Below are positions 1 through 60,880 of a DNA stretch of 64,000 nt, one piece after another; within the stretch, counting starts at the first letter, position 1; the number at the start of each line of letters is the position of its first letter. The notes beneath the pieces were generated by a model. The model was not told where the DNA came from. It made no database searches and saw only the letters and a list, made by a program, of their open reading frames with translations. The DNA comes from Escherichia phage vB_EcoM_ASO1A: the sequence record MZ726791.1; one strand, given 5' to 3'. A program made the position numbers and the translations under genes.

Positions 1-2292
1 ATGACACCTGAGATGTTCAGCCTTTTGAGTTCTGGTGTATATACCTTTAAAGAAAGGGCAGTGATTCGTGAACTGTCATGTAACGCAGTAGATGCTCAGA
101 AAGAAGCTGGAAAAGAGAACATCCCATTCCATGTGCATTTACCTACTCGTTTTGAGCCTTACTTCGAAGTTCGTGATTTTGGAACTGGATTGACTCATGA
201 TAAAGTTATGAGTTTGTACCTAAACTATGGAGCTTCTACGAAGAATGACTCTAATGACTACATTGGTGCAATGGGTATCGGCTCAAAGTCACCATTTGCA
301 ATTGCTCAGTCATTCACAGTATCTAGCTATGTTGATGGTGTTGTTAATAAGTACTCTGTTTATCTTGAGAATGGTATCCCTCAAGTAACTAAGCTGACAA
401 CTAACCCAACAAAAGAACCTAATGGTTTAGCTGTACGTGTGGCGGTTGCTGACCACCGTATCTCAAAGTTCTTTGAAGAAGCTGGGAATGTGTACTCATA
501 CTTCACTGTAAAACCAGAAAGTAATATTGAGTACGACGATGTATTAGCAGATATGAACGTCATTGCCCGTGAAGAAGGTGTTTATGATGCCATGATTCAT
601 AAGCACAGCTGGCGTTCTAGTGATAACAGGACAGAGTTTAATGTGGTGATGGGTAACATTGCCTACCCTGTTAACATGGAAGCATTACTTGGTGATGATT
701 TCTTCAAAGTATTGCCAGAATTTTTCCGTAGGAGCGTAGACCTTGTAAACATCTACATGCCTATTGGTTCAGTCGCTATTGCAGCTTCTCGTGAAGCATT
801 GCAGATGAATGACACGACAAAAAATGTTATCATTGAGGCTACTAAAAAGATAACTGAAGCAATTACAAAGGATGTTATCAAGAAAGTTAACAGTCAACCT
901 ACACTCATGGATGCTGCACAGGCTTATGCTGAGTTACGTTTGAACTCACGAGAGATGTTTAATGCTGTGTGTCCAAAGTTAGAGTGGGGAGGCGTTAAGC
1001 TTGATTCTCTGGAAGAAGAATTACTAAACATTCGTCGTGGAATTATCTACGCAGAAGACGGCTCAGTCATTTATGAACGTGACGGTAAAGGTAATATTAA
1101 GGTTGATAGGAACGGAAACAACATCCCTAAAGTAGATTATCTTTATGACCCAGTTGCTTATGTCAAGTTCAACTCTTTAGAGAGTAAGATTCGTGCAACA
1201 GCACTTTCCTACACTCAAGAGGCAAGTATGTTCAATATCTTTGGCGCAATGCGTAAAAGCCAAATTGAACAGTTTTTGTTTGTTATAAATGACCGTCGCA
1301 ATAAAAATGGTACTGAGAAGACTGTAGGACGCAACCAAATCTTGCGTGGTGCATGTCGAGACTATGCCAGTGAGTCAAGTCTGTTTCACAGATACAATGG
1401 TATTGTGTTTGTATTCTCGACTGAAAAAGAGTTAGATGATTTAATCAATCTACATAAACTTGATAAAAGCTTGTTAAAGATTGTGAAAATGTCTGATAAG
1501 GAGCACCATTACCAGCGCAAAGAAGCTGTAAGGGGTGTTGTAAAACTCTGGAAAGCTGTTCCAGCAGAAGGTGTAGCTTCCTATAAAGAGGTTTCAGAGG
1601 ACTTTGATACAATTGAAGAACCTCAGCTTTACATTAAGGCAGTTGGTGACACAGTTGATGGCGAATGTTTTTGCTCATCTCCAGAAGATGTAGCCAAGTC
1701 AGTTGCTAATGTTACAGGGAAGACAGTCTATGTTTTCCGAAAAGCAAATTGGAAAAAGATACCAGAAGACTGGATTGAAGTAGATGAGAAACTCTTGAAC
1801 GACAGCTTAACTGATGTTCATTGGATTAATCATAACAGGTATATGACACGTATCTATATGAATGGTGTCCTTGACCTTACAAGCAGTTGGATTATTGCCA
1901 GAAACTTTACGTTCAATAACAGGAAGATTTCTCGTGGCTATTGCTATTCACGGGATACAAACAAAACTATCTTCCTAGAAGGAAATGAAGATGCTGTAGA
2001 GGCAATGTTCGGTAAAATCCAATACGTTGCTGCACCATTTGCATACACTTATACTATTAGTGTATTGAAAACTTTGAAAGACTGTCTTGACAATGATACA
2101 AAGCTTTACAAGAAAATTAAGAAAGCTGGTGACCGTATGGTCATTAAGGTGACAAACTACCTTTCAAAAAGAAAACAAGAAAACTTCTTGCTTTCTCATT
2201 TAGATTGGAATAAAGTGTCACCCATCGAAGTGAGTAAGTTCTTAGGTTTTGATGTGAAGTGTGTTCCAGAAGGAACTACAGTTTACGATTAA
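1..2292 (+). CDS. rIIA: rIIA-like protein with GHKL-type ATPase motifs; N-terminus may be cut by window edge
   Basis: ORF begins at base 1; RELSCNAVDA (N-box-like) and RDFGTGL (G1-box-like) near N-terminus resemble T4 rIIA; followed by rIIB-like gene. Confidence 0.7.
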   Translation: MTPEMFSLLSSGVYTFKERAVIRELSCNAVDAQKEAGKENIPFHVHLPTRFEPYFEVRDFGTGLTHDKVMSLYLNYGASTKNDSNDYIGAMGIGSKSPFAIAQSFTVSSYVDGVVNKYSVYLENGIPQVTKLTTNPTKEPNGLAVRVAVADHRISKFFEEAGNVYSYFTVKPESNIEYDDVLADMNVIAREEGVYDAMIHKHSWRSSDNRTEFNVVMGNIAYPVNMEALLGDDFFKVLPEFFRRSVDLVNIYMPIGSVAIAASREALQMNDTTKNVIIEATKKITEAITKDVIKKVNSQPTLMDAAQAYAELRLNSREMFNAVCPKLEWGGVKLDSLEEELLNIRRGIIYAEDGSVIYERDGKGNIKVDRNGNNIPKVDYLYDPVAYVKFNSLESKIRATALSYTQEASMFNIFGAMRKSQIEQFLFVINDRRNKNGTEKTVGRNQILRGACRDYASESSLFHRYNGIVFVFSTEKELDDLINLHKLDKSLLKIVKMSDKEHHYQRKEAVRGVVKLWKAVPAEGVASYKEVSEDFDTIEEPQLYIKAVGDTVDGECFCSSPEDVAKSVANVTGKTVYVFRKANWKKIPEDWIEVDEKLLNDSLTDVHWINHNRYMTRIYMNGVLDLTSSWIIARNFTFNNRKISRGYCYSRDTNKTIFLEGNEDAVEAMFGKIQYVAAPFAYTYTISVLKTLKDCLDNDTKLYKKIKKAGDRMVIKVTNYLSKRKQENFLLSHLDWNKVSPIEVSKFLGFDVKCVPEGTTVYD

Positions 2293-2297
2293 AGTGT

Positions 2298-2327
2298 TTG
2301 ACAAGGGGCTTCAAAGCCCCTTAGAAT
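2298..2327 (+). promoter_or_regulatory. sigma70-like promoter upstream of rIIB-like gene
   Basis: TTGACA, 17-18 bp spacer containing GGGGCTTCAAAGCCCC hairpin, TAGAAT. Confidence 0.45.
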
Positions 2328-2371
2328 ATCCTCACAAAATGATTTATTAACTAACAAGAGAGAGTAATAAG

Positions 2372-3481
2372 ATGACTACTAAAACTAAAGCACAGATTGA
2401 CGCAGAAATTTACAAACTGGTTAAAGAAGGTAAGCTGACTAAAACAGCTATTGCACAGAAATTTAATACTTCAACCCGTTCAGTCGGTCGTGCTGTAGAG
2501 CGTCATGAAGCAACCTTAAAAGGTAAGAAAAAGGTAGCTTCTAAACCAGCTACGAAGACTTTGAAGCAAGTTGCTAAGACCTTTAAAAAGAAAGCTGACA
2601 AGCCAGTTAAAAAGGTTGTTAAAGATTCTGTACAGAAAGCTCCAGTAAATAAACTGCACGAAGCTATGCAGAAAGATGACAAGATTGAGTACATGATTAC
2701 TGGCGACTCTGTAATTATGACTTACGGTTCAGAATCTGAAATTGTTGAGTCTACTCATCCGAACTATCAAGAGATTGTAGTTCATGTTGTGAAAGGTGAG
2801 TTCAAGAAAGCCTTTGAACTGATGAACATTCGTAAGTCTATCGAAAACTTCACGCAGGGAGCTATCACAATCAAAGGTGATAAGCTATTCTACGGTGCTG
2901 TTGAGATGCGTTCTACTCTGGTTGACCGTATACTTCACATGATGAAGACTGGTGATAAAGGTTTTGAACGACTTGTAATGTTCTTCGAAAAACTGATGGA
3001 AAACCCATCTAAAGATTCTGTAGAACAACTTTGGGGATTCATATCTCACCTTGATGTTGAAATTGATGAAGAAGGCTACATCATTGGTTGGAAGAAAGTC
3101 TCTACTCGTGAAGGCAAGCTGGTTGACTCCCGCACCTGCAAAGTACCTAATGATTTGGGTAACATTGTAGAAATGCCACGTTGGATGGTTGATAATAACC
3201 GTAACGTGACTTGCTCTCAAGGTCTTCACGTTGGTGCTTGGGATTATGTTCGTTACTTCTCAGGTGATACAATTCTGAAGGTTCGTGTCCATCCACGAGA
3301 CGTTGTATCCGTACCAACTGATTACAACGATATGAAGATGCGCTCGTCTCGTTATGAAGTTGCAGCAATCGTTGATAATCAACGTAAAGTACTGAAAGCA
3401 TGGGATGGCAAGACTGAAGCTTTGCATGTCATCGTTGGCACTGCTGGTGAACTTATCTCTCAGCGTAAACGTGAAATCTAA
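2372..3481 (+). CDS. rIIB: rIIB-like protein
   Basis: Immediately downstream of rIIA-like gene; LFYGAVEMRSTLVDRIL segment resembles T4 rIIB from memory; lysine-rich N-terminal region. Confidence 0.55.
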   Translation: MTTKTKAQIDAEIYKLVKEGKLTKTAIAQKFNTSTRSVGRAVERHEATLKGKKKVASKPATKTLKQVAKTFKKKADKPVKKVVKDSVQKAPVNKLHEAMQKDDKIEYMITGDSVIMTYGSESEIVESTHPNYQEIVVHVVKGEFKKAFELMNIRKSIENFTQGAITIKGDKLFYGAVEMRSTLVDRILHMMKTGDKGFERLVMFFEKLMENPSKDSVEQLWGFISHLDVEIDEEGYIIGWKKVSTREGKLVDSRTCKVPNDLGNIVEMPRWMVDNNRNVTCSQGLHVGAWDYVRYFSGDTILKVRVHPRDVVSVPTDYNDMKMRSSRYEVAAIVDNQRKVLKAWDGKTEALHVIVGTAGELISQRKREI

Positions 3482-3496
3482 TAAGTAATTTCTTAA

Positions 3497-3522
3497 AAGG
3501 CTGCTTCGGCGGCCTTTTTTTA
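3497..3522 (+). terminator. rho-independent terminator
   Basis: AGGCTGCTTCGGCGGCCT hairpin followed by T7 run. Confidence 0.7.
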
Positions 3523-3582
3523 TTTGTATTTTGTGCAGAGTGCTGTATAATTGTTGTCACGATAAACTAAACAGGAGAACCA

Positions 3583-4131
3583 ATGAAGAAATTGATTCTA
3601 GGTTTGTGCTTAATGCTTACAGCACACTTATCTTATGCAGTTGACTGCCCAGAGCTATCAATTAGCCAAAAAGTAAACATGTTAAAAGCTTACCAGTATG
3701 GTGAGAACAACATGGGTAAAGGTTGGGGTATCACTCTAGCTGCTATAGCCTTACAAGAGTCAGAGTTAGGTCTGAAGGTAGAGAATAAAAAGACACATGA
3801 TTATGGTATTTTCCAGAATCACTTGAAGACTGTTGTAAAGCGTAACAAAATTAGTCCTAATGTGGCTAAAAAGAAACTCTTAAAAGACTTTAACTATGCT
3901 GCGAAGGAAACTCACAAAGAGCTTGAGTTTTGGACAAAGGTGCATGGTCAGCCAAAGTCAAAGAAGACTTTACAAAAAGTTTTAGCATCATATAATGCTG
4001 GGTATTCGTACAAAATCCCTAAAGCTAAGAAATATTCTCAAGATGTCTATAACAACATGAAAGTCATTGCTCAATGTGAATTTGCAACAAACATTTCTAA
4101 GGTAAACCATGAAAAAATTAAAAAAGTCTGA
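3583..4131 (+). CDS. secreted lytic transglycosylase-like protein (SLT motifs)
   Basis: N-terminal signal peptide MKKLILGLCLMLTAHLSYA; ES catalytic pair, GIFQ and SYNAGYS motifs spaced as in family-1 lytic transglycosylases; AGGAG RBS. Confidence 0.55.
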   Translation: MKKLILGLCLMLTAHLSYAVDCPELSISQKVNMLKAYQYGENNMGKGWGITLAAIALQESELGLKVENKKTHDYGIFQNHLKTVVKRNKISPNVAKKKLLKDFNYAAKETHKELEFWTKVHGQPKSKKTLQKVLASYNAGYSYKIPKAKKYSQDVYNNMKVIAQCEFATNISKVNHEKIKKV

Positions 4132-4804
4132 TGAAGTGCTGTGTCATGCTTACGACTTACATCCTCATGAGTTAGGTCTTGATTCCTGTGTATGGACTCC
4201 AGAACAGTGTAGGGATTTTGAAGACACTGCAAGAGAAGTTGTATGTTCACTCGAAGAGTTCCACACATCAGAGCCAATTGTGAATGTTGTAGATAAAGAG
4301 ACTGGACAAACTATAGGTGTAAGTCGTGATAGCTTAGTCATAGTCAATAAAGACCTTGTAGAAAAAGGTAACCTCATCTTAGCAGATATTGATGGTGTTC
4401 TTACAAATTTTAATCACGAAGATTGCTCAACGGAATTGACTGATGGGTCATTCTCACAGTACACTAATCTTCTTGACTCTGTAAGAGCAAAACCAACGTA
4501 TGTCTTTAGTATTATTGATGCAATTGCTAATCATGCTGCCATTGGACTCTTGACAGCGAGAGGTGAATCTCAGAGAATACCTACTGAGATGTTTTTAAGG
4601 CACAATATAGAGCATGATTACTTGCTTTTTATGCGTGGTTTTGGAACTAACTCTATAAGTGTAGAAAGTTTGAAAGTGAGGATGATTCAGTCTTGCATCC
4701 TGCCTTACTTTAATATAGTATGTTTTATAGAAGACACAGAGAAGAATGTGCAGAAGGTGAACAGAATCCTTCCACACATTAAAACCATGTTAGTTAAACA
4801 TTGA
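4109..4804 (+). CDS. HAD-superfamily hydrolase-like protein
   Basis: DIDGVLT (DxDGx motif I) and LLTARG motif; overlaps upstream gene by 23 nt. Confidence 0.4.
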   Translation: MKKLKKSDEVLCHAYDLHPHELGLDSCVWTPEQCRDFEDTAREVVCSLEEFHTSEPIVNVVDKETGQTIGVSRDSLVIVNKDLVEKGNLILADIDGVLTNFNHEDCSTELTDGSFSQYTNLLDSVRAKPTYVFSIIDAIANHAAIGLLTARGESQRIPTEMFLRHNIEHDYLLFMRGFGTNSISVESLKVRMIQSCILPYFNIVCFIEDTEKNVQKVNRILPHIKTMLVKH

Positions 4805-4814
4805 GAGAAAACTT

Positions 4815-5279
4815 ATGAACAATATCATTACGGTAGCACTGGACGATACGGTAAACAAATCTGCAATAGTTCGTAAAATGATTCAAGGTAACTTTGAAGG
4901 TAAAATTTTTCGTGCTGTTAATGTAAAAGCTGATGGCAGCATTCGTGAATATCGTGCATTATTGAATGTTAAAAAACACGTAAAAGGTGCTGGTTCAACT
5001 ACTGCACACAAAGAAAACCTGATGACTATCTATGATATGGGCAAGGCTTCAGAGTTAGGTGCTGAAGGTATCGTTAAAGAAGGTGCTCCGTATCGCTCTT
5101 TCAATCTGGAAACTACTCTTATGCTTTCCTTTACAAGTGGTTCTAAAACAATCACTTATCTCTTTACTGATGCTGCAACGGTATCTGCTATTAAGGATAG
5201 CACTGTCAAAGCTGGCGTAGTTGCTGCTGCAAAAGCTTCTTCGATGGCTGCGAATATCCTTGCTAAAGTCCTCGGTTAA
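4815..5279 (+). CDS. hypothetical protein
   Basis: 154-aa ORF ending before hairpin terminator at 5291. Confidence 0.45.
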   Translation: MNNIITVALDDTVNKSAIVRKMIQGNFEGKIFRAVNVKADGSIREYRALLNVKKHVKGAGSTTAHKENLMTIYDMGKASELGAEGIVKEGAPYRSFNLETTLMLSFTSGSKTITYLFTDAATVSAIKDSTVKAGVVAAAKASSMAANILAKVLG

Positions 5280-5290
5280 GGTTAAGATAC

Positions 5291-5313
5291 AGGCTCCTTC
5301 GGGAGCCTTTTTC
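5291..5313 (+). terminator. rho-independent terminator
   Basis: AGGCTCCTTCGGGAGCCT hairpin plus T run. Confidence 0.7.
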
Positions 5314-5331
5314 ATTTTAGGAGATTGTTAA

Positions 5332-5679
5332 ATGACATTTAAAGAGTTCTGTCAAGCTACTTTCATAATTGTTTTCTTAGTTGGTGCAGGTGTCTGGGGA
5401 GGATACTCTTACAGAGACTATCAAGTTGCTGAAACTGAGCTAAATAATGAGAAACTAATAAGTGTTGCTAAAGATGCTTATCAGGAAGGTTTAGCCACAC
5501 TCAGCACCAATTACAAAAATGATTTGAAAGATGTGCTTGCTAAGAATAAGCATACAAAAGAGGTACTAACATATGAAAAAACTAAGCCAGAGTTTTATAA
5601 TGTTTGTGTTACTGATAACTATGTCAGGGTGTTCAACGAACAAAGTGAGCAGTACATTCAAAAACTCCCAAGTAAGTGA
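5332..5679 (+). CDS. membrane protein with N-terminal TM helix (i-spanin-like architecture, tentative)
   Basis: AGGAG RBS; hydrophobic segment FIIVFLVGAGVWGG near N-terminus; 3' end overlapped by lipoprotein gene in +1 frame. Confidence 0.4.
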   Translation: MTFKEFCQATFIIVFLVGAGVWGGYSYRDYQVAETELNNEKLISVAKDAYQEGLATLSTNYKNDLKDVLAKNKHTKEVLTYEKTKPEFYNVCVTDNYVRVFNEQSEQYIQKLPSK

Positions 5680-5842
5680 GGGTGATAAGTACACCCAAGA
5701 AGAATCACGGTATATCATCAAAGGCAACACAGGCAGCGATGTAGCAGCAGCCCTTGAGTTCTATCGTGACGGCTTTTACCAGTGCACAATCAAAGCTAAC
5801 AACCTTATTGACATGATTTTATTAGGGAATAAGCAGCAATGA
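5573..5842 (+). CDS. lipoprotein (o-spanin-like architecture, tentative)
   Basis: AGAGG RBS; signal peptide with lipobox ITMSGC; starts inside preceding ORF in +1 frame. Confidence 0.4.
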   Translation: MKKLSQSFIMFVLLITMSGCSTNKVSSTFKNSQVSEGDKYTQEESRYIIKGNTGSDVAAALEFYRDGFYQCTIKANNLIDMILLGNKQQ

Positions 5843-6108
5843 CAGAGAATCAAGATACTTTTTACGTAGAAGGGTACTTACTGTTACCACGACCAAAAGA
5901 GACTTATATGCGAATTGATTTCTCACCAACCATTATGGATAATGTGATGTGCCATATCTTTATGCAAGGTGTCACAGCACAGCTTAAACATGTTGGTAAA
6001 GAGTGCAAAATAAAGGTTGACACTCATCCAGAAATCAAAGAGAATCACTACACATGGTTCTTACCAGATTCTAAAGAAATCTTAGCAGTTCTTAAAACGA
6101 GGAAGTAG
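5839..6108 (+). CDS. hypothetical protein
   Basis: 89-aa ORF, start overlaps previous stop. Confidence 0.4.
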   Translation: MTENQDTFYVEGYLLLPRPKETYMRIDFSPTIMDNVMCHIFMQGVTAQLKHVGKECKIKVDTHPEIKENHYTWFLPDSKEILAVLKTRK

Positions 6109-6832: not shown

Positions 6833-7618
6833 ATGGGTATTGTAAAAATCATCAATGGTGATATCTTTGCTGCATTTGATAAAGGTAAGTTTGACATCAT
6901 TGGTCATGGTTGTAACTGCATGAACCTAATGGGCGCAGGTATCGCTGACAAGATTTCTAAACTTTACCCAAAAGCATATGAGACCGATACAGAAGTTTAT
7001 CTCTATGCAGGTGGTATAGGTCACAAACCCTGTGAGAATTTACTAGGTAATTTCTCTGTAGCACGCTTAAAACAAGGTCGTATAGCTAACCTTTACACTC
7101 AGCTTAAGACTGGTAAAGATGCCCGATACAGTGCTTTAGAGTCATCTTTGAAGCAACTTAACAGATACTGTGAAGTTAATCAGTTGAAGAAAGTTGGTTT
7201 ACCTATGATTGGTGCAGGTATCGGTGGACTTGACCCTCAAGCCGTCACAGTTATCATCAATCAGGTGATGAAGAGTGTAGATGTTTATCTATATGTCTAT
7301 GAAGGAGAGATGTACCACAAGTTACTCTCAGGTTGGAAGAACTACTGTGAACCAGAATACTTTGCAGGTGTAGCAGTGTTCACAGATAACGCAGTTACCC
7401 TCTTCAGACGAAGAAAAGGTAAGATACATCAAAGTAACCCTCCGGTTGAAAAGATGTCTCTAAGTAACGCTCTAGTTACCCACCTGTCAAAGAGCAATCA
7501 CAGAATTGCTGTAACATTTGGTAGTGATGCAGAAGCTTATATCTATGCAAGAACTGATGAGGATATTGAGGCAATCTTCTCTTCACCAGAAGTTACCTTC
7601 TTAGACGCAAAGAACTAA
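6833..7618 (+). CDS. macro-domain protein (ADP-ribose binding/hydrolase-like)
   Basis: NGDIF...DIIGHGCNCMNLMGAGIA and LPMIGAGIGGL segments match macro-domain signature pattern (GDIT...NAAN...GGGV; FPAISTGxYG). Confidence 0.55.
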   Translation: MGIVKIINGDIFAAFDKGKFDIIGHGCNCMNLMGAGIADKISKLYPKAYETDTEVYLYAGGIGHKPCENLLGNFSVARLKQGRIANLYTQLKTGKDARYSALESSLKQLNRYCEVNQLKKVGLPMIGAGIGGLDPQAVTVIINQVMKSVDVYLYVYEGEMYHKLLSGWKNYCEPEYFAGVAVFTDNAVTLFRRRKGKIHQSNPPVEKMSLSNALVTHLSKSNHRIAVTFGSDAEAYIYARTDEDIEAIFSSPEVTFLDAKN

Positions 7619-60578: not shown

Positions 60579-60880
60579 TTTCTCTTACCACCAATTTCCA
60601 CGTCGATAACCTGAACACCGACAGCAACATCAAACTTGTGAGTAATACTCTCCACAGTGTAAGTCCAACCATCAATACTAACCCGTTCACCCTCTCGTGG
60701 TACTATTGGGTTTTGTTGAGCCACGGTTGCAGTGGAATAAACAACATCGTAGCAATAGATATAGTTGACTAGAATTTGCATATCAGTACCCTCCATCAAT
60801 AACAGTAGTGTGAGATTGGCCATTTTTGCCATATCTATAAGATGTTGTTGTTTGAGAGTTGGGGCATCTGACAACAACAA
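60575..60880 (-). CDS. hypothetical protein
   Basis: 101-aa ORF. Confidence 0.45.
   Translation of the reverse strand: MLLSDAPTLKQQHLIDMAKMANLTLLLLMEGTDMQILVNYIYCYDVVYSTATVAQQNPIVPREGERVSIDGWTYTVESITHKFDVAVGVQVIDVEIGGKRK

What the first reader, a model, noticed from the sequence alone, without database searches (positions are those of the whole stretch)
3583..5842. Lysis-associated cluster next to rII genes: secreted transglycosylase-like protein, HAD-like hydrolase and an overlapping TM/lipoprotein gene pair
3583-4131 encodes a signal-peptide protein with ES, GIFQ and SYNAGYS motifs in the order of family-1 lytic transglycosylases. 5332-5679 (N-terminal TM helix) is overlapped in the +1 frame by 5573-5842, a lipoprotein with lipobox ITMSGC, each with its own RBS. 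That is the embedded/overlapping i-spanin/o-spanin architecture, here 16 kb from the endolysin gene. The o-spanin candidate is not proline-rich, so this remains tentative.
Basis: partly seen in the sequence, partly recalled or inferred. Interest (0 to 1): 0.45.

Follow-up and report, generated by a model that had tools for sequence, protein, structure and literature searches.

The report
Known Felix O1-type spanin genes
This stretch of a Felix O1-like E. coli phage carries the phage's already catalogued two-part outer-membrane-breaking (spanin) gene pair, an exported cell-wall-cutting enzyme of the T4 Vs.1 type and a phosphatase, so it is correctly read but ordinary.

Summary
The window is the left 64 kb of a Felixounavirus; 3400-6100 is 100% identical to Escherichia phage vB_EcoM_ASO1B.

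- **Spanin pair.** 5332-5679 (N-terminal TM helix; PHROG 1152 "Rz-like spanin", E 8e-42) and 5573-5842 (+1 frame, 107-nt overlap, lipobox TMSG|C) are an overlapped i-spanin/o-spanin pair. Kongari et al. 2018 already list it as the "JH2" family, which includes Felix O1. The TM helix and +1-frame lipoprotein ORF recur in eight further loci from diverged phage lineages. In three of these the pair sits directly after the endolysin.
- **4109-4804.** The HAD phosphatase domain of polynucleotide kinase-phosphatase, without the kinase domain.
- **Proline-free o-spanin.** This is not disqualifying: the T4 o-spanin family also lacks a proline-rich region.
- **"Lysis cluster".** It is loose. Two lysis-related elements are separated by two genes with no lysis link and an intrinsic terminator.

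Verdict: observation confirmed, interpretation supported, already known. The only practical gain is annotation. The o-spanin gene is missing from the ASO1B record and truncated in many others.

The parts
3495..3526 (+). Intrinsic terminator after rIIB; it separates the rII genes from the next transcription unit.
   Evidence: GC-rich hairpin plus T-run found by the scan. Annotated as a terminator in MZ726792.
3583..4131 (+). Exported GH23/SLT-fold peptidoglycan-cleaving enzyme, 182 aa, of the T4 Vs.1 family. Signal peptide is residues 1-19 (nt 3583-3639), predicted catalytic residue E59, with conserved Cys22 and Cys165 in the mature part.
4109..4804 (+). 231-aa protein: an N-terminal domain of about 85 aa with unknown function, plus a HAD phosphatase domain of the polynucleotide kinase-phosphatase type. 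No kinase P-loop. Its start overlaps the previous gene by 23 nt.
   Evidence: PHROG 3970 E 2.4e-133, with weak hits only to the phosphatase part of PNK families. Invariant D93-I-D95-G-V, T149-A-R-G, K189 and D209. Homologues pass Pfam PF25109 HAD_PNKP. PDB Pnkp1 4xrp residues 177-298 at E 1.3e-4.
4815..5279 (+). 154-aa protein of unknown function, found almost only in Ounavirinae; no evidence of a role in lysis.
   Evidence: PHROG 2267, unknown function. No PDB sequence hit. Homologues in 298 phage records, almost all Felix O1-like or Erwinia relatives.
5291..5318 (+). Intrinsic terminator ending 3 nt before the i-spanin ribosome-binding site.
   Evidence: Hairpin AGGCTCCTTCGGGAGCCT plus T-run. 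Annotated in MZ726792 and at the same place in phage Mijalis.
5332..5679 (+). i-spanin, 115 aa: short cytoplasmic N-terminus, TM helix at about residues 6-24, periplasmic domain of about 91 aa with invariant E82, K83, C92, Y97 and N102.
   Evidence: PHROG 1152 'Rz-like spanin' E 8e-42. Hydropathy. Alignment A4 of 9 lineages. Annotated i-spanin in ekra and Mijalis. Kongari 2018 JH2 family.
5573..5842 (+). o-spanin, 89 aa, in the +1 frame, overlapping the i-spanin gene by 107 nt. Lipoprotein signal MKKLSQSFIMFVLLITMSG|C20, Ser at +2 (outer-membrane sorting), a mature part of 70 aa (C20-Q89) with no proline, and invariant C71. Its stop overlaps the ATG of the next gene (ATGA).
   Evidence: Lipobox regex. 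80% identical to the Moogle o-spanin P0034. Same geometry as the Mijalis o-spanin. Lipobox ORF conserved in the other loci. Alignment A3: invariant C20, G54, C71, N76, L78. Reduced divergence in the overlap. Not annotated in MZ726792.
21238..21702 (-). Canonical soluble endolysin (T4-lysozyme-like), the partner the spanins depend on, 15.4 kb away.
   Evidence: ORF list. PHROG 7 'endolysin' E 7.5e-58.

Best explanation
The window is a Felixounavirus (Felix O1-like myovirus).

Spanin pair. Genes 5332-5679 and 5573-5842 encode its two-component spanin in the 'overlapped' arrangement. The i-spanin is anchored in the inner membrane by its N-terminal helix, with about 91 residues in the periplasm. 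The o-spanin is exported, lipidated at Cys20 after signal peptidase II cleavage, and sorted to the outer membrane (Ser at +2). Inferred from the lambda and T4 paradigms: the two C-terminal regions bind each other through the peptidoglycan mesh, each with one invariant cysteine available for disulfide-linked oligomers. The complex stays inert until the distant endolysin (21238-21702) removes the peptidoglycan. It then fuses or disrupts the outer membrane as the last step of lysis.

Exported enzyme. Gene 3583-4131 encodes a Sec-exported GH23/SLT-fold enzyme of the T4 Vs.1 family. It most likely cuts peptidoglycan in the periplasm independently of the holin, as an accessory activity rather than as the main lysin.

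Phosphatase. Gene 4109-4804 is a stand-alone PNKP-type HAD phosphatase, probably acting on nucleic-acid 3'-phosphate ends. It is not a lysis protein.

Shown here: sequence features, folds, homology, conservation and gene context. Inferred: topology, lipidation, complex formation, enzymatic activities and the timing of action.
For: - Identity of the phage.
- Spanin family assignment: PHROG 1152 E 8e-42; Kongari et al. 2018 list Felix01, JH2, WV8, UAB_phi87 and Moogle in one overlapped i-spanin family and one o-spanin family; the Moogle paper states that endolysin, i-spanin, o-spanin and putative holin are scattered in Felix O1-like genomes.
- Same 348/270-nt genes with a 107-nt overlap annotated as i-/o-spanin in Mijalis.
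- TM helix plus +1-frame lipobox ORF conserved in Ounavirinae, phiEco32-like, Proteus, Klebsiella and Yersinia phages.
- Homologous pairs lie in canonical cassettes: holin-x-lysozyme-i-o in Proteus 2207-N35, endolysin-i-o in Yersinia P778, endolysin-membrane protein-i-o in Klebsiella e270.2.
- Dual-coding constraint in the overlap.
- SLT fold and motifs; Vs.1 homology.
- HAD_PNKP domain.
Against: - No member of this spanin family has been tested experimentally, as far as the searched literature shows.
- The o-spanin's best PHROG (4180) is labelled 'unknown function', and its hit to a spanin PHROG is weak (phrog_456, E 2e-3).
- The mature o-spanin has no proline, and its AF2 model is low confidence (pLDDT 51).
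- The genes lie in an early-type region behind an intrinsic terminator, with no recognisable promoter of their own.
- The 182-aa protein is below Pfam's SLT gathering score (18.9 vs 21.3 bits), and no function is known for any Vs.1 homologue.
- The window's 231-aa protein itself gives no Pfam hit.
Confidence: 0.85

Rival explanations
1. The TM protein and the lipoprotein form an envelope system with another job, for example superinfection exclusion or receptor masking as with phage lipoproteins such as T5 Llp, or membrane protection linked to rII. They would not be the outer-membrane disruption step of lysis.
For: The genes sit in an early-type region next to rIIA/rIIB, 15.4 kb from the endolysin, directly behind a terminator. 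The o-spanin has no prolines and its main PHROG is 'unknown function'. No experimental test of this family was found.
Against: Homologous pairs sit immediately after the endolysin, with a holin upstream, in three other phage lineages. T4 spanins are also remote from holin and endolysin and also lack a proline-rich region, yet they complement lambda Rz/Rz1. The overlapped TM-protein/lipoprotein arrangement with conserved C-terminal motifs and one Cys in each partner is the spanin signature. The only other lipoprotein ORF in the window has no TM partner and no C-terminal TM segment.
Confidence: 0.07
2. The +1-frame ORF 5573-5842 is a chance open frame and only the 115-aa TM protein is a gene. 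This is how the ASO1B record is annotated.
For: It is not annotated in MZ726792. Many gene callers give only a 73- or 68-aa truncated version without the signal peptide.
Against: The full-length ORF with a positively charged N-terminus, hydrophobic core and lipobox Cys is kept in diverged lineages at 27-45% identity. Divergence in the overlap is halved. It has its own Shine-Dalgarno sequence. Only about 2% of ORFs in the window have such an N-terminus. Expert-curated records annotate it.
Confidence: 0.02
3. The 182-aa SLT-fold protein is a main, signal-peptide-exported lysin that sets lysis timing without a holin. This would match the 'putative lysin' label in some records, rather than an accessory enzyme.
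For: It has a conserved catalytic Glu, a confident GH23 fold and an export signal. It is annotated 'putative lysin' in ekra and Sf17. Papers on Felix O1-like phages note that no holin lies next to the lysin gene.
Against: The phage has a canonical soluble endolysin of PHROG 7. Homologues in T4-like phages (Vs.1) coexist with the e lysozyme and t holin and are described only as conserved ORFs of unknown role. An unrestrained exported lysin made from an early-type unit would be expected to lyse the cell prematurely (inference).
Confidence: 0.08

Closest known systems
'JH2' overlapped two-component spanin family of Kongari et al. 2018 (Felix01, FO1a, JH2, WV8, EC6, UAB_phi87, Moogle, Mushroom, FSL SP-010/012/107; the i-spanin family also includes phiEco32-like phages)
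   Same: Same proteins: FSL SP-107 i-spanin is 100% identical and the Moogle o-spanin 80% identical. The gene lengths, 107-nt overlap and +1 frame are the same.
   Different: Nothing substantive. In this phage's own GenBank record the o-spanin gene is simply not annotated.
Phage P2 LysB/LysC (prototype of the overlapped spanin architecture) and lambda Rz/Rz1 (embedded)
   Same: A type II inner-membrane protein plus an outer-membrane lipoprotein encoded in the +1 frame at the 3' end of the first gene. Periplasmic cysteines are present in both subunits.
   Different: No sequence similarity was found to lambda-type families (different PHROGs). The o-spanin extends beyond the i-spanin stop, so it is not embedded. 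It has no proline-rich region, whereas lambda Rz1 has a penta-proline stretch. It is not part of a lysis cassette.
Phage T4 PseT.3/PseT.2 spanins
   Same: Similar sizes (117/99 aa against 115/89 aa). They lie far from the holin and endolysin, next to a pseT-type phosphatase gene. The o-spanin has no proline-rich region and has a predicted C-terminal helix.
   Different: No detectable homology beyond the TM helix and lipobox (BLASTP and hhalign). Different PHROGs: 739/812 against 1152/4180. T4 genes are separated, these overlap. T4 PseT.3 has no periplasmic Cys and PseT.2 has two; here each subunit has one invariant Cys.
T4-type Vs.1 (PHROG 600) and small 'specialised' lytic transglycosylases such as EtgA of the EPEC type III secretion system
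   Same: A protein of about 180 aa with a signal peptide and a single GH23/SLT domain, carrying the E-S, G-x-x-Q and Y-N-x-G motifs. It is 34% identical to RB69 Vs.1. D73 aligns with the Asp before the G-I-M-Q motif of EtgA.
   Different: EtgA acts with a secretion-system rod protein; no partner is known here. The Cys22/Cys165 pair is absent from RB69 Vs.1. No activity has been shown for any Vs.1 homologue.
Phosphatase domain of T4 Pnkp (PseT) and of bacterial Pnkp1 (PDB 4xrp); Pfam PF25109 HAD_PNKP
   Same: HAD motifs occur in the same order (DxDGx, T-x-R-G, K, D-D/E-D). The profile matches Pnkp1 residues 177-298.
   Different: There is no 5'-kinase domain and no P-loop. Instead there is an unrelated N-terminal region of about 85 aa, so the common database name 'polynucleotide kinase' is an over-annotation.

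Membership tests
Two-component spanin (i-spanin/o-spanin) | i-spanin: a single N-terminal transmembrane helix with the bulk of the protein periplasmic (type II) | tested here: met
   Hydrophobic segment at residues 6-24, KD mean 1.75 over 19 residues and 2.9 over 11, with K4 before it and no other hydrophobic segment. Conserved in 9 lineages. The topology itself is inferred.
Two-component spanin (i-spanin/o-spanin) | o-spanin: signal peptidase II signal with lipobox Cys, and no Asp at +2 (outer-membrane sorting) | tested here: met
   MKKLSQSFIMFVLLITMSG|C20-S21 matches a PS51257-type pattern. C20 is invariant and S21/T22 nearly invariant. No LipoP/SignalP tool was available, and lipidation was not tested.
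Two-component spanin (i-spanin/o-spanin) | Adjacent genes in an embedded, overlapped or separated arrangement, with the o-spanin in the +1 frame when overlapping | tested here: met
   107-nt overlap, +1 frame, o-spanin ends 163 nt beyond the i-spanin stop, giving the 'overlapped' class. Same in Mijalis.
Two-component spanin (i-spanin/o-spanin) | Homology to a catalogued spanin family | tested here: met
   i-spanin: PHROG 1152 'Rz-like spanin' E 8e-42. o-spanin: 80% identical to the Moogle o-spanin. Both phage sets are listed in the Kongari 2018 JH2 families. The o-spanin's own PHROG 4180 carries no functional label.
Two-component spanin (i-spanin/o-spanin) | At least one periplasmic Cys available for intermolecular disulfide links | tested here: met
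   C92 (i-spanin) and C71 (o-spanin) are invariant. Disulfide formation was not tested.
Two-component spanin (i-spanin/o-spanin) | Proline-rich region in the o-spanin (a feature of the lambda Rz1 family only) | tested here: not met
   0 Pro in the mature protein. This is not a defining feature of spanins in general: the functional T4 o-spanin family also lacks it. Relatives in Erwinia, Yersinia and phiEco32-like phages have a few Pro in the linker.
Two-component spanin (i-spanin/o-spanin) | Helical or coiled-coil periplasmic domain of the i-spanin | not tested
Two-component spanin (i-spanin/o-spanin) | Required for outer-membrane disruption after peptidoglycan degradation | not testable with these tools
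   Supported only by context: homologues lie in holin-endolysin cassettes of three other phage lineages.
GH23 / family 1 lytic transglycosylase (Pfam SLT, PF01464) | Lysozyme-like GH23 fold | tested here: met
GH23 / family 1 lytic transglycosylase (Pfam SLT, PF01464) | Catalytic Glu in the E-S motif, followed by the G-x-x-Q and A/S-Y-N-x-G motifs | tested here: met
   E59, Q78, Y137, N138 and G140 are invariant and S60 nearly invariant (>=90%) in 15 homologues. E59 aligns with the Glu of the EtgA N-E-S motif.
GH23 / family 1 lytic transglycosylase (Pfam SLT, PF01464) | Score above Pfam's gathering threshold | tested here: not met
   18.9 bits against a cut-off of 21.3, E 1.2e-3. More distant homologues P0015, P0016 and P0018-20 carry precomputed PF01464 hits.
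GH23 / family 1 lytic transglycosylase (Pfam SLT, PF01464) | Non-hydrolytic cleavage giving 1,6-anhydro-MurNAc (transglycosylase rather than lysozyme) | not testable with these tools
   The fold is shared with hydrolytic g-type lysozymes. D73 aligns with an Asp of EtgA, so the chemistry is open.
T4-type Vs.1 family (PHROG 600) | Full-length homology to Vs.1 of T4-like phages | tested here: met
   PHROG 600 at E 3.6e-57 for the window protein and 3.7e-67 for RB69 Vs.1. BLASTP 34% identity over 172 aa, E 9e-20.
HAD superfamily, PNKP-type phosphatase domain (PF25109) | HAD motifs I-IV (DxDx[T/V], T/S, K, acidic pair) | tested here: met
   D93-I-D95-G-V, T149-A-R-G, K189 and D209 are invariant in 9 homologues.
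HAD superfamily, PNKP-type phosphatase domain (PF25109) | Significant match to the family model | tested here: inconclusive
   The window protein gives no Pfam hit at E <= 0.1. Homologues P0029 (33.6 bits) and Erwinia M7 gp094 (41 bits) pass the 27.6-bit cut-off. The family profile hits PDB Pnkp1 at 1.3e-4.
Polynucleotide 5'-kinase/3'-phosphatase (T4 PseT), as named in many records | N-terminal P-loop kinase domain | tested here: not met
   No GxxxxGK[ST] motif in the sequence (translation). Alignment to T4 Pnkp covers only its residues 150-289. PHROG 505 is matched only at profile positions 158-282 of 295.
SAR (signal-anchor-release) endolysin, considered for the 182-aa protein | Weakly hydrophobic, uncleaved N-terminal TM segment instead of a cleavable signal | tested here: inconclusive
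   An A/S-x-A/S site follows the hydrophobic core here and in homologues (SYA|V, AVA|S, ASA|T), which favours a cleaved Sec signal. No predictor or experiment was available.

The most novel reading that the evidence does not exclude
The Sec-exported Vs.1-type GH23 enzyme and the spanin pair lie in the same stretch downstream of rIIB in the Ounavirinae loci examined (Citrobacter phage Mijalis, Hafnia phage SarahDanielle). They might together form a holin-independent 'envelope-priming' route. In this reading the exported enzyme opens or thins the peptidoglycan mesh during infection, so that the proline-free, helix-ended spanin complexes can assemble or fire. This could help explain why no holin lies next to the lysin gene in Felix O1-like phages.
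Probability: 0.08. Interest if true: 0.5.

Novelty: already known. Interest (0 to 1): 0.1.

Why it matters
The biological gain is small. The spanin pair of Felix O1-like phages has been catalogued since at least 2018, and the Vs.1/SLT similarity was noted in 2006.

The practical value is for annotation:
- The o-spanin gene is absent from this phage's GenBank record.
- The same gene is truncated to a signal-less 73- or 68-aa product in many automatic gene calls.
- The 231-aa protein is widely mislabelled 'polynucleotide kinase', although it has only the phosphatase domain.
- The 182-aa protein can now be called a GH23-fold exported enzyme with good structural support.

These phages are used for Salmonella and E. 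coli biocontrol, so correct lysis-gene annotation has some applied use.

Tried and rejected
- **Homology to T4 spanins.** BLASTP and hhalign against PseT.3/PseT.2 gave only TM-helix and lipobox matches, so this was rejected.
- **Direct PDB sequence searches.** The single 182-aa, 231-aa and 154-aa proteins gave nothing useful. Only family profiles gave hits.
- **NCBIfam.** It gave only sub-threshold noise for all five proteins.
- **o-spanin structure with diverged phage homologues.** The run with close homologues gave a low-confidence model (pLDDT 51). I used it only to say 'disordered linker plus C-terminal helix', and did not use it for fold search.
- **A second spanin candidate.** I checked whether the other lipoprotein ORF (60783-61049, - strand) could be a unimolecular spanin. 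It has no C-terminal TM segment, so this was rejected.
- **Promoter for the spanin genes.** The sigma-70 scan found nothing convincing between the terminator and the RBS, and the overall number of promoter-like hits is not above the shuffled expectation.
- **Literature.** No functional study of Vs.1 or of the Felix O1 SLT-like protein was found.
- **Coordinates.** The first T4 region I fetched was the wrong one. Two PHROG calls failed because the window is offset by 6 nt from MZ726792 near 21 kb.
Full report
**Identity of the window.** Bases 3400-6100 are 100% identical to Escherichia phage vB_EcoM_ASO1B (MZ726792.1; Ounavirinae, Felixounavirus). They are 97-99.6% identical to many other Felix O1-like phages of Escherichia, Salmonella, Shigella and Citrobacter. 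The window starts at rIIA, as that record does. It is not identical to the record along its whole length: coordinates are shifted by 6 nt near 21 kb.

**The observation.**
- The 182-aa product of 3583-4131 begins MKKLILGLCLMLTAHLSYA|VD. That is a charged n-region, an 11-residue hydrophobic core, and Ser/Ala at -3/-1. It contains E59-S60, G75-I-F-Q78 and S136-Y-N-A-G-Y-S142.
- 5332-5679 encodes 115 aa with a single hydrophobic segment at residues 6-24.
- 5573-5842 is in the +1 frame and overlaps by 107 nt. It encodes 89 aa beginning MKKLSQSFIMFVLLITMSG|C, which fits a PROSITE-type lipobox, with Ser at +2 and no proline in the mature part.
- Both genes have Shine-Dalgarno-like sequences.
- The endolysin is at 21238-21702 on the minus strand (PHROG 7, E 7.5e-58), 15.4 kb away.

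**Is the overlapping lipoprotein ORF more than chance?** Three results say yes.
- Only 4 of 224 ORFs of >=50 aa in the window have a lipobox-type N-terminus.
- A TM-helix protein whose 3' end is overlapped in the +1 frame by an ORF with a charged N-terminus, hydrophobic core and lipobox Cys recurs in eight further loci from diverged lineages. These are Citrobacter Mijalis, Hafnia SarahDanielle, Erwinia M7, Yersinia P778, two phiEco32-like coliphages, Klebsiella e270.2 and Proteus 2207-N35, at 25-35% (i-spanin) and 27-45% (o-spanin) identity apart from Mijalis, which is closer at 77% and about 80%. The alignments show invariant C20, G54, C71, N76 and L78 in the lipoprotein, and G24, E82, K83, C92, Y97 and N102 in the TM protein.
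- Against Mijalis, nucleotide divergence is 24.5% and 30.7% in the single-coding parts but 11.2% in the overlap. This is what selection on both frames predicts.

**What the pair is.**
- The TM protein hits PHROG 1152 'Rz-like spanin' at E 8e-42. The lipoprotein hits PHROG 4180 (unlabelled) at 1e-49 and a spanin PHROG only weakly.
- Related records annotate the two genes as i-spanin and o-spanin. The expert-curated Mijalis record has exactly the same geometry: 348 nt, 270 nt, 107-nt overlap, each gene with an RBS.
- Kongari et al. 2018 (PMC6139136) list Felix01, FO1a, JH2, WV8, EC6, UAB_phi87, Moogle, Mushroom and FSL SP-010/012/107 as one 'overlapped' i-spanin family (JH2, 15 members including phiEco32-like phages) and one o-spanin family (11 members).
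- The Moogle genome paper states that in Felix O1-like phages the endolysin, i-spanin, o-spanin and putative holin are scattered rather than in a cassette.
- Independent context evidence: homologous pairs lie in canonical lysis cassettes elsewhere. Proteus 2207-N35 has holin (PHROG 198) - small ORF - lysozyme - i - o. Yersinia P778 has endolysin (PHROG 7) - i - o. Klebsiella e270.2 has endolysin (PHROG 315) - membrane protein - i - o.

**The proline issue.** The T4 o-spanin family also lacks a proline-rich region, has a predicted C-terminal helix, lies far from t and e, and nevertheless complements lambda Rz/Rz1. The present family is not homologous to the T4 spanins. Relatives in Erwinia, Yersinia and phiEco32-like phages carry a few prolines in the linker. 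An AF2 model of the o-spanin from close homologues is low confidence (pLDDT 51). It suggests only a disordered linker (about residues 21-45) followed by a C-terminal helix (54-88) that contains C71.

**Mechanism (inferred from the lambda and T4 paradigms).**
- The i-spanin sits in the inner membrane with about 91 periplasmic residues.
- The o-spanin is lipidated at C20 and sorted to the outer membrane.
- The conserved C-terminal regions (…EKTKPxFYNxCxTDxYxxxFNE in i; …LEFYRDxFYxCxxxxNxLID in o) are the likely contact, each offering one invariant Cys.
- The complex is held inactive by the peptidoglycan mesh until the endolysin acts.
- An intrinsic terminator (5291-5318) ends 3 nt before the i-spanin RBS, here and in Mijalis. 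Spanin mRNA therefore probably arises by read-through of an upstream unit. I found no convincing promoter in between.

**The 182-aa protein.**
- Pfam SLT is just below threshold (18.9 vs 21.3 bits), but the wider evidence is clear.
- More distant homologues carry PF01464.
- E59, G63, Q78, Y137, N138, G140 and Y151 are invariant and S60 nearly invariant.
- The family profile hits EtgA (E 3.3e-4) and goose lysozyme (E 0.01) in the PDB.
- The AF2 model is confident (pLDDT 84.8; residues 20-165 mostly above 90), with the signal peptide disordered.
- It is a homologue of Vs.1 of T4-like phages. Both fall in PHROG 600, and it is 34% identical to RB69 Vs.1 at E 9e-20. Homologues occur in 2128 phage records.
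- Nolan et al. 2006 already noted the marginal SLT match of vs.1 and suggested 'some role in cell lysis'. I found no functional study.
- My reading: a Sec-exported periplasmic peptidoglycan-cleaving enzyme acting as an accessory, not the main lysin. Whether it is a transglycosylase or a hydrolase cannot be decided from sequence. D73 aligns with an Asp preceding the G-I-M-Q motif in EtgA.

**The 231-aa protein.**
- PHROG 3970 is labelled 'polynucleotide kinase', but the weaker hits cover only the phosphatase part of true PNK families.
- The HAD motifs are invariant (D93-I-D95-G-V, T149-A-R-G, K189, D209).
- Homologues pass Pfam PF25109 'HAD_PNKP', and the profile matches residues 177-298 of Pnkp1 (4xrp) at 1.3e-4.
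- The alignment to T4 PseT is confined to its phosphatase half, and there is no P-loop.

**The 154-aa protein (4815-5279).** It is largely restricted to Ounavirinae and of unknown function.

**Is it a 'lysis cluster'?** Only loosely. The order rIIB - Vs.1-like - phosphatase - … - i/o-spanin - … - macro-domain protein is kept in the Ounavirinae loci where that stretch was examined (Citrobacter phage Mijalis, Hafnia phage SarahDanielle), and the Erwinia phage M7 locus shows the phosphatase-to-macro-domain part of it. However:
- the phosphatase and the 154-aa protein have no lysis link;
- a terminator separates them from the spanin genes;
- in RB69 vs.1 sits in a different gene neighbourhood (between regB and vs), and in T4 the region around pseT.3/pseT.2 holds no vs.1 gene;
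- in phiEco32-like phages the homologous spanins have other neighbours.

The region looks like a block of T4-type early or accessory genes: rIIA, rIIB, Vs.1, a PseT-type phosphatase, and a macro-domain protein that shares PHROG 335 with Tk.4.

**Verdict.** What remains useful is annotation. The o-spanin gene is missing from MZ726792. It is truncated to start at M-S-G-C in ekra and in many automatic calls: a 73-aa form with 303 member sequences, and 68-aa forms. The 'polynucleotide kinase' name should be read as 'PNKP-type phosphatase domain protein'.

Noticed in passing
window 60783-61049 (- strand): An unannotated 88-aa ORF with a GTG start and a classic lipoprotein signal (…VALGVIFLAG|C). 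It overlaps the 3' end of the DNA ligase gene by about 47 nt. It matches PHROG 902 (unknown function, E 3e-18) and has homologues in 598 phage records, including many Vibrio phages. It has no C-terminal TM segment, so it is not a unimolecular spanin.
   Followed up: partly
window 5291-5318: An intrinsic terminator ends only 3 nt before the i-spanin ribosome-binding site. The same arrangement is annotated in Citrobacter phage Mijalis. The spanin genes therefore seem to depend on terminator read-through, or on a promoter type that the scan does not recognise.
   Followed up: partly
window 5573-5842; proteins P0038-P0051: Automatic gene calls commonly truncate the o-spanin to 73 aa (start at M-S-G-C, window 5621) or 68 aa, removing the signal peptide. 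The 73-aa form alone stands for 303 member sequences. The ASO1B record omits the gene, and the ekra record uses the truncated start.
   Followed up: yes
window 6833-7618 and 1-4804: The macro-domain 'phosphatase' (Pfam Macro 1e-7) shares PHROG 335 with T4-type Tk.4. In RB69, Tk.4 lies two genes from vs.1. Together with rIIA, rIIB, the Vs.1 homologue and the PseT-type phosphatase domain, this end of a Felixounavirus genome is a block of T4-type accessory genes.
   Followed up: partly
window 4109-4804 with 5332-5842, compared with T4 134002-135781 (L013): In both T4 and this phage, a spanin pair lies within about 1 kb of a PseT-type phosphatase gene, although the two spanin pairs are not homologous. 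This may be coincidence or non-orthologous replacement at a conserved position.
   Followed up: no
window 18387-18920 (- strand): A 177-aa protein with two C-terminal hydrophobic segments (PHROG 4343, unknown function; 'membrane protein' in the record). It lies 2.3 kb from the endolysin and is one conceivable candidate for the holin that papers on Felix O1-like phages describe as not found next to the lysin gene.
   Followed up: no
window about 21 kb, compared with MZ726792.1: The window is not base-for-base the GenBank record. The endolysin is at 21238-21702 in the window against 21232-21696 in the record, so there is a 6-nt indel somewhere between 6.1 and 21 kb.
   Followed up: no
phage collection hits: Near-identical Felixounavirus sequence is deposited under 'Campylobacter phage A126' (MG065668) and under one 'Staphylococcus' phage name. 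These are probably mislabelled or contaminated records.
   Followed up: no
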